The position numbers and the translations under genes are program-made. 7,784 nt of DNA from a virus (Monodnaviria > Loebvirae > Hofneiviricota > Faserviricetes > Tubulavirales > Inoviridae): IMG/VR virus record IMGVR_UViG_2648501498_000001; one strand, 5' to 3'. The notes beneath the pieces were generated by a model. The model did no database searches, was not told where the DNA came from, and worked only from the letters and a program-made list of their open reading frames with translations. Positions 1-7,784 of this stretch are shown one piece after another; the stretch's first letter is position 1; every line of letters begins with the position of its first letter.

Positions 1-33
1 GTGCGCATAATGTGACACGCGTTATGTTGAAAA
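1..33 (+). other. dif-like Xer recombination site (site 1); window begins inside it
   Basis: Sequence GTGCGCATAA-TGTGACACGCG-TTATGTTGAAA. As I recall it, E. coli dif is GGTGCGCATAA-TGTATA-TTATGTTAAAT. The XerC-arm-like and XerD-arm-like blocks are conserved, but the central region is 11 nt instead of 6. Confidence 0.5.
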
Positions 34-64
34 GGCCGCTGCGATACTTTCCACCGCAGCGGCC
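34..64. other. Perfect GC-rich stem-loop between the two dif-like sites
   Basis: GGCCGCTGCG (34-43) pairs perfectly with CGCAGCGGCC (55-64); 11-nt loop 44-54; flanked by AAAA (30-33) and TTTTT (65-69). Could also act as a bidirectional intrinsic terminator. Confidence 0.6.
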
Positions 65-66
65 TT

Positions 67-92
67 TTTATACATAACGCCATTGTGCGCAC
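67..92 (-). other. dif-like Xer recombination site (site 2), inverted relative to site 1
   Basis: Reverse complement of 67-92 is GTGCGCACAA-TGGCG-TTATGTATAAA: the same XerC-like arm (one mismatch) and TTATGT XerD-like arm, with a 5-nt central region. In single-stranded form 1-33 can pair with 67-92, giving matched arms and an unpaired central bulge. Confidence 0.45.
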
Positions 93-102
93 TGTTGTGT
101 AT

Positions 103-243
103 TCAGTCGTTGCTTCTGTTGATTTTATTGTGTGCCCTCAGGACGATTGGCAACACTATTGTTATGACGCTGAACAAAAACATGCCGAACAGACTACCGG
201 CAATCAGGTATTTCATTAGTAAATCCAGAATCATGTCGTGCAT
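103..243 (-). CDS. Hypothetical small hydrophobic protein (46 aa), weakly supported
   Basis: Minus-strand ORF read by hand: MHDMILDLLMKYLIAGSLFGMFLFSVITIVLPIVLRAHNKINRSND. One predicted TM-like segment; no convincing Shine-Dalgarno; below the ORF-track size cut-off. Confidence 0.25.
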   Translation of the reverse strand: MHDMILDLLMKYLIAGSLFGMFLFSVITIVLPIVLRAHNKINRSND

Positions 244-365
244 GGTTTTTCTGAGCTGATGTTGTTAATCCTGTCGAGACTCTACATTCCTTTAGCTATT
301 TTTTAAATCGTATTTTCGTATCCGAGACGCCAGCACGCCGATGAAGAAGATAAGGGGAGGAGGAC

Positions 366-396
<31 letters not shown>

Positions 397-476
397 TCGA
401 GGACGGGAGCGCCTGCCGTGACGACGGACGACAATCACGATGATGATGATTCTTGGCGTGTTTGGGCAGGGATAAA

Positions 477-526
477 CCCCCGTCTTGTAACACGGGGGTA
501 GAGTCAACGGAAACTCAAGGGTTTCC
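477..526 (-). terminator. Candidate terminator hairpins downstream of the minus-strand regulator gene
   Basis: Hairpin 1: CCCCCGT (477-483) / ACGGGGG (492-498) with 8-nt loop; on the minus strand it is followed by TTTAT. Hairpin 2: GGAAAC (509-514) / GTTTCC (521-526) with 6-nt loop. They could instead be origin or packaging hairpins. Confidence 0.35.
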
Positions 527-584
527 AGTTAAACCGTATCCTTTCGATCCTTCGCGGGTAGTCTGCTGAATGCAGGAAAAGGGA

Positions 585-797
585 TCACATTGCCTTTTTT
601 TTCTTAAGTTCTTCTTTGCTTATTAGATCTTTCACCGCATCATCTAAGTAGTTGTCTATTAAGTGGTTTACTATCTCTGATGGTTTTAGTAGCTCACCTG
701 TTTTATTACCGATTTCCAGCACTCTTCGTTTTAGCTCCAGTTTTCTGTTTTCGTTAATCCTTACGGTTGTGTCTCCGCGCTTTGTTTCTTTTTTCAT
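585..797 (-). CDS. Small basic DNA-binding-like protein, candidate phage transcriptional regulator/repressor (about 70 aa)
   Basis: Divergent from the rep operon, as rstR is from rstA in CTXphi. Sequence MKKETKRGDTTVRINENRKLELKRRVLEIGNKTGELLKPSEIVNHLIDNYL... fits a beta-strand then two helices (ribbon-helix-helix-like), with a lysine-rich tail. The track ORF starts at a TTG (798-800); the adjacent ATG (795-797) has GAGGT about 9 nt upstream on the minus strand. Confidence 0.55.
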   Translation of the reverse strand: MKKETKRGDTTVRINENRKLELKRRVLEIGNKTGELLKPSEIVNHLIDNYLDDAVKDLISKEELKKKKAM

Positions 798-850
798 CAA
801 AATTTACCTCTATGTCCTTTCAATAGAAGGTGATTATTCCATTTTTTTTA

Positions 851-2673
<1,823 letters not shown>

Positions 2674-2677
2674 TTTT

Positions 2678-2851
2678 ATGTCTGTTAATTCGGATTCAGT
2701 TTCCACGCAAATTAATGCTATTTGCGTGGGGATACCTGATGTGTCGGGGATTTATTCCTCGGCGTTTTTAACGGGATTTTCACTGCCAGTATTTTGTTTT
2801 TTTCTTGGCATGATTATTTCCACAATTTGGAGTTTAATAAGAAGGCTTTAA
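2678..2851 (+). CDS. Small hydrophobic protein (57 aa), candidate minor coat protein (gpVII/gpIX-like)
   Basis: Hand-read ORF MSVNSDSVSTQINAICVGIPDVSGIYSSAFLTGFSLPVFCFFLGMIISTIWSLIRRL. C-terminal TM-like segment with basic tail; starts 5 nt after the previous stop and ends 2 nt before the coat gene ATG. Weak RBS. Confidence 0.4.
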   Translation: MSVNSDSVSTQINAICVGIPDVSGIYSSAFLTGFSLPVFCFFLGMIISTIWSLIRRL

Positions 2852-2853
2852 TT

Positions 2854-3102
2854 ATGTTTGCAAAAATGACCAATTTTTTTAAGGGTGTTGATAAGAAAGT
2901 TGCAGCTTTATCTTTTTCCGCTGCTTCTGCTCTTGCTGTATCTCCGTCTTTTGCTGGTACAGTCGATTTTTCATCATTGACTAACAGCATTGATATGTCT
3001 TCTGTTTCTGCTGTTATTCTTTCTATCGGTGTTGCAGGAGTTACAGTTTATCTGACTTTTGCTGGCGTTCGTAAAGTATGGGGAGCCATCAGAAGTATCT
3101 GA
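2854..3102 (+). CDS. Major coat protein (gpVIII-like) precursor
   Basis: 82 aa from the ATG at 2854 (AAGAAGG upstream). Signal peptide ending SFA|GT, then a mature peptide of about 49 aa with a hydrophobic core and basic C-terminus (VRKVWGAIRSI). Followed by a strong intrinsic terminator, as for Ff gene VIII. Confidence 0.75.
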   Translation: MFAKMTNFFKGVDKKVAALSFSAASALAVSPSFAGTVDFSSLTNSIDMSSVSAVILSIGVAGVTVYLTFAGVRKVWGAIRSI

Positions 3103-3118
3103 GTTGTTTTTTATGAGG

Positions 3119-3145
3119 AAGGGCGGATATTCCGCCCTTTTTTTG
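3119..3145 (+). terminator. Rho-independent terminator after the major coat gene
   Basis: AAGGGCGGA (3119-3127) pairs with TCCGCCCTT (3131-3139); 3-nt loop; run of 7 T (3138-3144). Confidence 0.8.
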
Positions 3146-3236
3146 GATATTTATGTTTGATTTTATTTTTATGATGTTTGGTTCCCTTTGTGGGTTATGT
3201 TGCGTCATTGGGTTTAAATCTAATTTGTGAGGTTTT

Positions 3237-3407
3237 ATGTCTACTCAAGAATTTAAAGTTAAATTGCCGGAATACACTATCGAGCAGATAGAAAGAATTA
3301 TTTACAATAAAAATACAACCATTGAAGAATATGCTGTTTCAGTTATTCTTGAAAAAGCCGATCAGGATTTCCGTCGAATTGTAAAACCATTTAGTTTTTA
3401 CTGGTGA
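3237..3407 (+). CDS. Hypothetical hydrophilic protein (56 aa), orphan ORF between coat terminator and pIII gene
   Basis: Hand-read ORF MSTQEFKVKLPEYTIEQIERIIYNKNTTIEEYAVSVILEKADQDFRRIVKPFSFYW. GAGG 6 nt upstream of the ATG; stop TGA 3405-3407 lies 4 nt before the pIII ATG. No TM segment, so unlikely to be a coat protein. Confidence 0.5.
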   Translation: MSTQEFKVKLPEYTIEQIERIIYNKNTTIEEYAVSVILEKADQDFRRIVKPFSFYW

Positions 3408-3411
3408 TGAA

Positions 3412-4893
<1,482 letters not shown>

Positions 4894-4907
4894 TAATCAG
4901 GTGGTGA

Positions 4908-5198
<291 letters not shown>

Positions 5199-5209
5199 GA
5201 GGGTGATTT

Positions 5210-7523
<2,314 letters not shown>

Positions 7524-7524
<1 letters not shown>

Positions 7525-7640
7525 TGCCGCAACGCGGCATGTAAGGCGGCATGATGATGTTTCATGTGATGCAGCTGCCTGACCGCCGAAGCCAGGGAGA
7601 AATTACAGAGCAGCAGGAGACAGCGCAACGCGCTTCCTGC
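7524..7640. other. Non-coding region with two hairpins sharing a CGCAACGCG core
   Basis: Hairpin A: ATGCCGC (7524-7530) / GCGGCAT (7534-7540), loop AAC. Hairpin B: GCAGG (7613-7617) ... AGCGC (7622-7626) AAC GCGCT (7630-7634) ... CCTGC (7636-7640). Neither has a T-run. No ORF in 7525-7784. Confidence 0.4.
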
Positions 7641-7784
7641 CAGGCCGCTTTTAAAGGGCAGCTATCGAGACGAACGACGCAAGGCGTGAGTCGTCCATGC
7701 ATTGATGTGGCCAGTTGATGAAATTGATGGGTTACAGCAATTCTGGTGATGACTGGCCTTCGGTTTTCATCAGTCCTGATAACA

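What the first reader, a model, noticed from the sequence alone, without database searches (positions are those of the whole stretch)
3237..3407. Orphan 56-aa hydrophilic ORF between the coat terminator and the pIII gene
This ORF has its own GAGG RBS and is packed 4 nt upstream of the pIII start. It is soluble-looking with no TM segment, so it is not an obvious structural protein, and Ff has no gene in this position. Slots like this in inoviruses often hold accessory cargo such as small regulators or host-interaction proteins.
Basis: inference. Interest (0 to 1): 0.5.

Follow-up and report, generated by a model that had tools for sequence, protein, structure and literature searches.

The report
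Small ribbon-helix-helix gene before pIII
The 56-codon reading frame is a real, lineage-specific accessory gene of an undescribed E. coli filamentous prophage; it encodes a small protein predicted to have the ribbon-helix-helix DNA-binding fold, inserted just ahead of the receptor-binding coat gene, and its target and role are unknown.

Summary
The ORF is at 3237-3407 (56 aa), with GAGG 4 nt upstream and its stop 4 nt before the pIII ATG, downstream of a real coat-gene terminator. Alone it is barely above chance: 7% of shuffles give an ORF this long. Comparative data show it is a gene. A 46%-identical allele (type B) sits in the same slot of a sister E. coli inovirus. pN is below pS, the frame stays open at 57% nt identity, and the C-terminal motif DFRxIVKPFSF is kept despite many synonymous changes.

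The gene is accessory. The nearest catalogued relatives and CTXphi have no gene here; it was inserted between a conserved 25-aa membrane-peptide ORF and gIII. It has no promoter of its own, is mildly acidic, and its body evolves fast while its tail is frozen.

Most likely it is a dimeric RHH regulator or adaptor made together with the morphogenesis proteins. Its target is unknown. This is a new member of a known kind and of moderate interest.

The parts
2854..3102 (+). Major coat protein gene (82 aa), which is the upstream neighbour
   Evidence: phrog_2186 virion structural protein, E 2.9e-14; weak Pfam Phage_Coat_B hit. PGAP does not call it in the O166:H15 record.
3115..3145 (+). Intrinsic terminator after the coat gene: 13-bp hairpin plus T-run
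   Evidence: RNA fold dG -18.9 kcal/mol, z -3.75. Conserved in all relatives.
3153..3230 (+). Conserved 25-aa hydrophobic ORF (MFDFIFMMFGSLCGLCCVIGFKSNL). It is a core gene of this inovirus clade, and its stop overlaps the ORF56 Shine-Dalgarno sequence.
   Evidence: omega 0.06 against the type-B phage. 0 nonsynonymous and 5 synonymous changes among type-A haplotypes. Positional homologues with invariant G10, C13 and G20 occur in phages whose Zot is only 35-44% identical. KD(19) 2.1.
3229..3232 (+). GAGG Shine-Dalgarno sequence of ORF56, 4 nt before the ATG
   Evidence: Read from the sequence. Conserved in type A; type B has GAG only.
3237..3407 (+). ORF56: the 56-aa protein of the finding, predicted to have a ribbon-helix-helix fold
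3249..3266 (+). Residues 5-10 (EFKVKL): predicted beta-ribbon strand. The outward-facing residues E5, K7 and K9 align with the Arc DNA-reading residues Q9, N11 and R13.
   Evidence: Profile alignment to Arc. Extended in the AF2 model.
3270..3383 (+). Helix 1 (residues 12-25), turn N26-T27-T28 (N26 and T28 invariant), and a long helix 2 (residues 29-49)
   Evidence: AF2 with family alignment, pLDDT 80-90 in this span. Invariant columns.
3366..3398 (+). C-terminal motif DFRxIVKPFSF (residues 44-54). It is the most conserved part of the protein and a presumed partner-binding or oligomerisation tail.
   Evidence: Residues 42-54 are 11/13 identical between types, against 14/41 for residues 1-41 (Fisher p 0.003). 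Many synonymous differences across these codons. No change in residues 42-56 among type-A haplotypes.
3403..3414 (+). ORF56-to-pIII junction: GGTGAT (SD-like) overlapping the TGA stop, then 4 nt, then the pIII ATG. This is translational-coupling geometry.
   Evidence: Read from the sequence. The same stop + 4 nt + ATG spacing occurs in the type-B locus L006, TAA-AACA-ATG; other type-B alleles have different C-terminal lengths.
3412..4893 (+). pIII-like minor coat/adsorption protein (493 aa). Its N-terminal two-thirds diverge together with ORF56.
   Evidence: Assigned by position before the DUF2523 (pVI) and Zot genes, a signal peptide, a Gly/Thr linker and a C-terminal anchor. Divergence profile.

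Best explanation
ORF56 is a real, translated, lineage-specific accessory gene of an E. coli CTXphi-like inovirus. It encodes a small ribbon-helix-helix (RHH) protein.

By analogy with every characterised RHH protein, two chains should pair their N-terminal strands (residues 5-10) into a two-stranded ribbon that inserts into the DNA major groove. On the Arc alignment, E5, K7 and K9 would be the base-reading side chains. Helices 12-25 and 29-49 would form the dimer core. The invariant C-terminal tail DFRxIVKPFSF would contact a conserved partner, either a neighbouring dimer for cooperative binding or a phage or host protein.

The gene has no promoter of its own. It sits after the coat terminator, 6 nt after a conserved 25-aa ORF and 4 nt before gIII. 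It is therefore made by terminator read-through and translational coupling, in step with pIII, only when the phage is producing virions. I infer that it is a production-phase regulator or adaptor acting on a DNA site in the morphogenesis module or in the host chromosome.

Shown: the gene is real, the predicted fold is RHH, the gene is an insertion, and the operon layout and selection pattern are as described. Inferred: dimerisation, DNA binding, a role for the tail, and timing of expression. Unknown: the target.
For: Real gene:
- A 46%-identical homologue occupies the same coat-to-pIII slot of a sister phage.
- Between the types pN is 0.37 and pS 0.72.
- The frame survives at 57% nt identity, where only 3.5% of unconstrained simulations stay open.
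- The tail is conserved through synonymous changes.
- About 700 contigs carry the intact protein against 2 with disrupted versions.
- The ORF56 region is present in all 45 copies of the module.

Fold:
- AF2 with a 22-sequence alignment gives pLDDT 80 with an extended 1-11, H12-25, a turn and H29-49.
- Foldseek against PDB and BFVD returns Arc, CopG, AmrZ, AtaR, ParG and repressors.
- All 19 type-B members hit PHROG 'Arc-like repressor' and 'transcriptional repressor', best E 0.005, over residues 2-42.
- A PDB profile search aligns residues 5-40 to Arc 9-44.

Accessory insertion: the slot is empty in D_HF5_61, Dulem virus 52, D_HF32_91 and CTXphi.

Operon context: no promoter-like site lies between the terminator and the ORF, and the junction spacing is the same in type-B locus L006.
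Against: - Every sequence-level link to RHH families is sub-significant on its own (E 0.005-0.8).
- The AF2 model rests on an alignment with only two effective sequence types, and the five models range from pLDDT 57 to 80.
- The protein is acidic to neutral (pI 5.3 and 6.2), whereas Arc and CopG are near pI 10.
- It lacks its own promoter and any recognisable operator, unlike nearly all RHH repressors and antitoxins.
- No DNA target was found. The inverted repeats near or within the ORF are not conserved between types on inspection of the alignment.
- The gene travels with two unrelated replication/lysogeny modules, which argues against a role in the phage's lysogeny switch.
- Among type-A haplotypes omega is about 1 (12 N: 3 S), compatible with weak constraint on most of the protein.
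Confidence: 0.5

Rival explanations
1. ORF56 is an antitoxin-like or adaptor RHH whose main job is protein binding through the conserved C-terminal tail. It might neutralise a host toxin or abortive-infection effector (an orphan antitoxin acting as anti-defence). Alternatively it might dock onto a conserved phage protein such as the Zot/pI ATPase, as ParR and ParG tails engage their partition NTPases. DNA binding would be secondary.
For: - The best structural matches are RHH antitoxins with C-terminal extensions: TacA1 to TacA3, KacA, AtaR, ParD, MazE6.
- The acidic to neutral pI is typical of antitoxins (my general knowledge) and unlike Arc and CopG.
- The tail is the only strongly constrained part.
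- Fast amino-acid turnover in the body suits a conflict-related protein.
Against: - No toxin gene is adjacent. The neighbours are a 25-aa core membrane peptide and pIII, with no Pfam or PADLOC toxin hits.
- There is no autoregulated promoter.
- In an arms race the interaction surface would be expected to vary, yet the tail is invariant.
- The tail is only about 7 unstructured residues beyond helix 2.
Confidence: 0.25
2. ORF56 is a type-specific superinfection-exclusion or receptor-control factor. The RHH would repress, or otherwise block, expression of the host receptor recognised by the co-inherited pIII N-terminal domains. That would explain why ORF56 and the receptor-binding part of pIII diverge together.
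For: - The divergent cassette at about 3140-4650 spans the 25-aa ORF, ORF56 and the pIII N-terminal domains, while the flanks are 92-99% identical.
- The putative DNA-reading residues differ between types: K7/K9 in type A, R7/Q9 in type B.
- ORF56 travels with the morphogenesis module and not with the lysogeny module.
Against: - Co-divergence may simply reflect physical linkage within one recombination tract.
- No receptor and no host operator is known.
- A read-through-dependent gene may be poorly expressed in a quiescent lysogen, which is when exclusion matters.
Confidence: 0.1
3. ORF56 is a dispensable or decaying ORF. In this view it matters only as a translated spacer that delivers ribosomes to the gIII start, and its protein product has no function.
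For: - Among type-A haplotypes the substitution pattern is indistinguishable from neutral: 12 N: 3 S, binomial p = 1.0.
- The single-sequence ORF is only marginally above chance.
- The 4-nt junction suggests coupling.
- Two disrupted copies exist in databases.
Against: - The protein-level conservation of the tail through synonymous changes cannot be explained by a spacer role.
- pN is below pS between the types.
- Replacements in the helices are conservative, hydrophobic for hydrophobic.
- The alignment yields a confident, recognisable fold.
- Relatives translate pIII without such a spacer.
Confidence: 0.07

Closest known systems
Arc/Mnt/CopG-type ribbon-helix-helix repressors (phage P22 Arc, plasmid pMV158 CopG)
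   Same: Size is similar (45-56 aa). The topology is beta-alpha-alpha. The strand pattern with a following Pro (EFKVKLP against Arc QFNLRWP) and the polar turn before helix 2 match. Arc is the best full-length sequence-profile match, PHROG 'Arc-like repressor' profiles hit, and Foldseek returns Arc and CopG.
   Different: There is no significant sequence homology. ORF56 is acidic (pI 5.3) where Arc and CopG are near pI 10. Helix 2 is longer and is followed by a conserved aromatic tail. The gene is not next to a promoter or operator that it could autoregulate, and it sits inside a structural operon and not in an immunity or copy-control region.
RHH antitoxins of type II toxin-antitoxin systems (TacA/KacA/AtaR of the DUF1778 family, ParD, RelB, CopA_SO)
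   Different: The downstream gene is pIII, a secreted adsorption protein, and not a toxin. No toxin family was detected nearby. There is no promoter of its own, and the tail is much shorter than typical toxin-binding regions.
Accessory regulators of integrative inoviruses (CTXphi RstR/RstC; the omega-like RHH ORF13 of Pseudomonas phage PMBT54, PMC10534721)
   Same: These are small regulators carried by filamentous phages as non-core cargo. PMBT54 ORF13 is also an RHH protein.
   Different: Those genes lie in the regulatory or accessory region outside the morphogenesis genes. ORF56 is embedded between a core tiny ORF and gIII, and it moves with the morphogenesis module across two different replication backbones. 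There is no sequence similarity to them.

Membership tests
Ribbon-helix-helix (RHH / MetJ-Arc) superfamily | Beta-alpha-alpha protomer of about 45 residues | tested here: met
Ribbon-helix-helix (RHH / MetJ-Arc) superfamily | N-terminal strand with alternating hydrophobic (core) and polar or basic (DNA-facing) residues | tested here: met
   Type A reads E5-F6-K7-V8-K9-L10-P11 and type B reads E5-I6-R7-L8-Q9-I10-P11. These align to Arc Q9-F10-N11-L12-R13-W14-P15.
Ribbon-helix-helix (RHH / MetJ-Arc) superfamily | Conserved G-x-S/T/N turn, with the N-terminus of helix 2 contacting the DNA backbone | tested here: inconclusive
   The turn is N26-T27-T28, with N26 and T28 invariant in all 22 sequences. 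Asn stands where Gly is usual.
Ribbon-helix-helix (RHH / MetJ-Arc) superfamily | Significant sequence-profile match to a curated RHH family | tested here: not met
   No Pfam or NCBIfam RHH hit at E <= 10. Only sub-threshold matches were found: PHROG Arc-like, best E 0.005, and Arc in the PDB, E 0.79.
Ribbon-helix-helix (RHH / MetJ-Arc) superfamily | Obligate homodimer that binds DNA through the ribbon | not testable with these tools
   No multimer prediction or binding assay was available. No conserved operator was found.
Type II toxin-antitoxin antitoxin (RHH class) | Adjacent cognate toxin gene | tested here: not met
   The neighbours are a 25-aa core membrane peptide and pIII. No toxin or defence family was found in Pfam or PADLOC.
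Type II toxin-antitoxin antitoxin (RHH class) | Own autoregulated promoter and operator upstream | tested here: not met
   No sigma-70-like site lies between the terminator and the ORF. Only 6 nt separate it from the upstream ORF. The scan is consensus-only.
Phage immunity repressor (Arc/Mnt or RstR-like role) | Located in, and co-inherited with, the immunity/lysogeny module | tested here: not met
   Type-A ORF56 occurs with two unrelated replication/regulation modules, and it lies in the exchangeable module 2672-7729.
Inovirus core (morphogenesis) gene set | Present at the syntenic position across related inoviruses | tested here: not met
   Absent from D_HF5_61, Dulem virus 52, D_HF32_91 and CTXphi. 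By contrast the 25-aa ORF upstream is present in the first three.

The most novel reading that the evidence does not exclude
ORF56 is a new kind of inovirus accessory factor: a promoter-less RHH protein, translationally coupled to pIII, that co-evolves with pIII's receptor-binding domains. It would either set type-specific superinfection exclusion or receptor expression, or use its invariant tail to couple a DNA site to the assembly machinery.
Probability: 0.12. Interest if true: 0.65.

Novelty: new member of a known kind. Interest (0 to 1): 0.38.

Why it matters
Filamentous prophages reshape the behaviour of pathogens, and most of their small accessory ORFs are unannotated or labelled 'hypothetical'. 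This work turns one such ORF, in a prophage found in human-derived E. coli genomes (27 of 5426 complete genomes), into a concrete and testable object. It is a predicted RHH protein with defined DNA-reading residues, an invariant tail motif and two natural alleles.

If it regulates host genes or superinfection, it would be a phage-borne switch that acts only during virion production. The work also shows that a 25-aa ORF ahead of gIII is a conserved core gene that annotation pipelines miss. It further shows that the morphogenesis module of this phage is exchanged between XerCD/dif-type and IS110-transposase-type backbones.

Tried and rejected
Tried without result:
- Pfam, NCBIfam and PADLOC scans of ORF56 found nothing usable.
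- tblastn against 50,697 phage records gave only noise.
- Megablast of the whole window against the phage collection found no match.
- The species-representative genome scan with Zot found no relative.
- Single-sequence AF2 gave a poor model, one long helix at pLDDT 65.
- hhalign against single Arc, Mnt and CopG sequences was weak. Arc was best, with probability 7%.
- Rfam found nothing in the window.

Considered and rejected:
- A paralogue of the phage's 71-aa divergent putative regulator: no similarity.
- A canonical toxin-antitoxin antitoxin: no toxin and no promoter.
- An immunity repressor: the gene travels with the wrong module.
- A conserved nucleotide element instead of a protein: the tail codons differ synonymously.
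- Operator candidates: the palindrome at 3207-3224 and the inverted repeat at 3322-3353 are not conserved in type B on inspection of the alignment. The GCGGCATG hairpin and repeat at 7521-7555 is conserved but is not type-specific.
- UPphi901 as a relative: it is an IKe/I2-2-like phage of a different group.

Full report
CONTEXT. The window is one unit (7784 nt) of an integrative filamentous phage of E. coli. The gene order on the + strand is as follows:
- a divergent 71-aa putative regulator (585-800, minus strand);
- a Rep_trans/RstA-like initiator (1102-2328; 33% identical to CTXphi RstA);
- a 111-aa protein;
- a 57-aa protein;
- the major coat protein (2854-3102);
- pIII (3412-4893);
- a DUF2523/pVI-like protein;
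- Zot/pI;
- a secretin.

The phage is present in 27 of 5426 complete E. coli genomes, 45 copies in all and often in tandem. I found no match in the catalogued phage collection and no paper describing it.

OBSERVATION. The ORF is exactly as described. It spans 3237-3407 with an ATG start and encodes 56 aa. GAGG lies 4 nt upstream, and the TGA stop lies 4 nt before the pIII ATG. The 'coat terminator' is real: a 13-bp hairpin plus a U-run, dG -18.9 kcal/mol, z -3.75. The protein is hydrophilic and has no TM segment. RefSeq already calls it a hypothetical protein, WP_179148870.1. PGAP leaves it unannotated in a second phage lineage.

By itself an ORF this long is not remarkable. 7.3% of dinucleotide shuffles of the 309-nt interval contain one.

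IS IT A GENE? Yes, on four lines of evidence.

(i) Homologue in the same slot. An exhaustive HMMER scan of 1.84 billion representative proteins found a single distant homologue, P0005 (63 aa, 46% identity, E 2.8e-7). That homologue lies in the same slot (coat, then ORF, then pIII) of a sister inovirus. A profile search of 5.8 billion proteins found only more copies of these two allelic types (A as in the window, B), with every source-named hit labelled E. coli.

(ii) Selection between the two types. pN is 0.37 against pS 0.72 for ORF56. At the observed 57% nucleotide identity, an unconstrained frame would stay open in only 3.5% of simulations.

(iii) The tail. The C-terminal motif DFRxIVKPFSF is kept at the protein level although its codons carry many synonymous differences. 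Residues 42-54 are 11/13 identical between types, against 14/41 for residues 1-41 (p = 0.003).

(iv) Retention. All 45 copies of the conserved pVI-Zot segment in complete genomes are accompanied by the ORF56 region. The intact protein cluster is seen on about 700 contigs, against two disrupted variants.

WHAT IS IT? Sequence libraries gave nothing significant. By eye the sequence fits a strand-helix-turn-helix pattern, and several independent tests converge on a ribbon-helix-helix fold:
- AlphaFold2 with the 22-sequence family alignment gives mean pLDDT 80. The model has an extended N-terminus (1-11), helix 12-25, a three-residue turn and helix 29-49. The single-sequence run had been uninformative.
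- Foldseek against the PDB and against viral models gives the same picture: Arc, CopG, AmrZ, AtaR, ParG and 'Arc-type ribbon-helix-helix'.
- All 19 type-B proteins hit the PHROG families 'Arc-like repressor' and 'transcriptional repressor' over residues 2-42, best E 0.005.
- The family profile's third-best PDB hit is Arc, aligned 5-40 to 9-44 (E 0.79).

In that alignment E5, K7 and K9 (type B: E5, R7, Q9) take the place of Arc's DNA-reading Q9, N11 and R13. P11 matches Arc P15. The invariant N26-x-T28 sits at the inter-helix turn. Each sequence-level signal is sub-significant, so the RHH assignment rests mainly on the predicted structure. I rate the fold at about 0.85.

ACCESSORY OR CORE? Accessory.

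The nearest catalogued relatives are Inovirus D_HF5_61, Dulem virus 52 and Inovirus D_HF32_91 (Zot 35-44% identical, same gene order). They have only 51-93 nt between the coat gene and pIII. CTXphi has 10 nt. Ff has none (established knowledge).

Those short gaps do hold a 24-25-aa hydrophobic ORF that abuts or overlaps pIII. It is homologous in pattern to the window's 25-aa ORF at 3153-3230, with invariant G10, C13 and G20. That tiny ORF is under strong purifying selection: omega is 0.06 between types, with 0 N: 5 S within type A.

The ancestral layout is therefore coat, terminator, tiny ORF, pIII. ORF56 was inserted between the last two in the E. coli lineage.

CONTEXT OF EXPRESSION. No promoter-like site lies between the terminator and ORF56. 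ORF56 starts 6 nt after the tiny ORF, whose stop overlaps the GAGG. It ends 4 nt before the pIII ATG, with an SD-like GGTGAT across its stop. The stop + 4 nt + ATG geometry is also present in the type-B locus L006, although other type-B alleles differ in C-terminal length. I infer read-through transcription and translational coupling, so the protein would be made together with pIII.

EVOLUTIONARY BEHAVIOUR. The segment from about 3140 to 4650 (tiny ORF, ORF56 and the pIII N-terminal two-thirds) is a divergence hotspot, with dS saturated between types. The flanking coat, pIII C-domain, pVI, Zot and secretin genes are 89-98% identical in protein.

ORF56 always travels inside an exchangeable morphogenesis module, window 2672-7729. 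In other E. coli strains that module is joined to a completely different backbone, with an IS110-family transposase and a 667-aa replication endonuclease, inserted at various chromosomal sites. This argues against a role in the lysogeny switch of any one backbone.

Among close type-A lineages ORF56 changes almost only at the amino-acid level. There are 7 N: 0 S between the window and L002, and 12 N: 3 S over all haplotypes. Its neighbours in the same cassette are dominated by synonymous changes (Fisher p about 1e-4 to 4e-3). The replacements are conservative (V/I/L/A, E/Q/K) and avoid residues 42-56. The body is thus either weakly constrained or diversifying, while the tail is frozen.

MECHANISM. 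The best-supported reading is a dimeric RHH protein. It would bind DNA through its ribbon and use the invariant tail to contact a conserved partner, as a production-phase regulator or adaptor (confidence 0.5).

Several observations temper this:
- The protein is acidic to neutral (pI 5.3 and 6.2) where Arc and CopG are near pI 10.
- It has no promoter or operator of its own.
- I could not identify a target. Local inverted repeats are not conserved between types on inspection of the alignment. A conserved GCGGCATG hairpin and repeat after the secretin is not type-specific.

These features, together with the TacA/KacA/ParD structural matches, keep an antitoxin-like or adaptor reading alive (0.25). 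No toxin gene is adjacent, however.

A type-specific superinfection-exclusion or receptor-control role would explain the co-divergence with pIII's N-domains. It may equally be mere linkage (0.1). A functionless 'spacer' ORF is unlikely given the tail conservation (0.07).

COMPARISON AND NOVELTY. ORF56 appears to work like an Arc/CopG/antitoxin-type RHH protein. It fails sequence-based membership of any curated RHH family. It also fails the contextual criteria for a TA antitoxin or an immunity repressor.

RHH regulators are common phage cargo and are known in inoviruses, for example PMBT54 ORF13 (PMC10534721), though that paper places it outside the morphogenesis genes. I classify ORF56 as a new, sequence-orphan member of a known kind in an unusual genomic position. 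Interest is moderate (0.38).

Noticed in passing
window 3153-3230 (+): A 25-aa hydrophobic ORF (MFDFIFMMFGSLCGLCCVIGFKSNL) lies between the coat terminator and ORF56 and is not annotated in RefSeq. It is under strong purifying selection (omega 0.06; 0 N : 5 S). Positional homologues sit directly ahead of pIII in distant gut and saliva inoviruses, so it is probably a missed core gene, either a pVII/pIX-like tip protein or an assembly peptide.
   Followed up: yes
window 1-92: A very stable ssDNA hairpin (dG -38 kcal/mol, z -10.4). Its arms carry dif-like XerC (GTGCGCATAATG) and XerD-like (GTTATGTTGAAAA) sequences around a bulge. It looks like a CTXphi-style folded attP for XerCD integration.
   Followed up: partly
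window 2672-7729; loci L002-L005: The whole morphogenesis module is shared at 97-99% with a second E. coli inovirus lineage. That lineage has an IS110-family transposase, a 667-aa replication endonuclease and a downstream phospholipase-D-family gene. It is inserted at different chromosomal sites (next to hcxB, leuO/yabR and yahK). This is modular exchange between integration and replication backbones.
   Followed up: partly
window ~3140-4650: A divergence hotspot covers the tiny ORF, ORF56 and the N-terminal two-thirds of pIII, with dS saturated against the type-B phage. The flanks are 92-99% identical. This suggests replacement of a host-range cassette by recombination.
   Followed up: partly
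L001 8754-8891 (-), corresponding to window ~2870-3007: In the O166:H15 RefSeq record PGAP calls a 138-nt antisense ORF in place of the major coat gene (window 2854-3102). It also omits the 57-aa gene at window 2678-2851.
   Followed up: no
window 193-564: A GC-rich non-coding stretch matches E. coli plasmids, including 2.5-2.7 kb small plasmids, at 84-96% identity with no annotated feature. Rfam finds nothing. Its function is unknown; it could be a cer-like site or an RNA.
   Followed up: no
window ~4440-4580 (within pIII): A (GT)n-type microsatellite encodes the Gly-Thr/Gly-Ser linker of pIII and is length-polymorphic. pIII ranges from 493 to 569 aa among copies.
   Followed up: partly
window 7521-7555: Immediately after the secretin stop there is a hairpin, ATGCCGC-loop-GCGGCAT, followed by a second GCGGCATG 12 nt later. 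The stem is conserved and the loop is variable across type-A and type-B phages. It may be an operon terminator, part of a packaging signal or a protein-binding array. A 55-aa ORF at 7551-7718 overlaps the region.
   Followed up: partly
window 585-935: A divergent 71-aa gene (phrog_2503, unknown function) faces the best promoter-like site in the genome (872-901, 10 of 12 matches). That site is flanked by inverted repeats (859-869/905-915) and direct repeats (827/888). This is probably the repressor-operator region of the RstA-type backbone.
   Followed up: no
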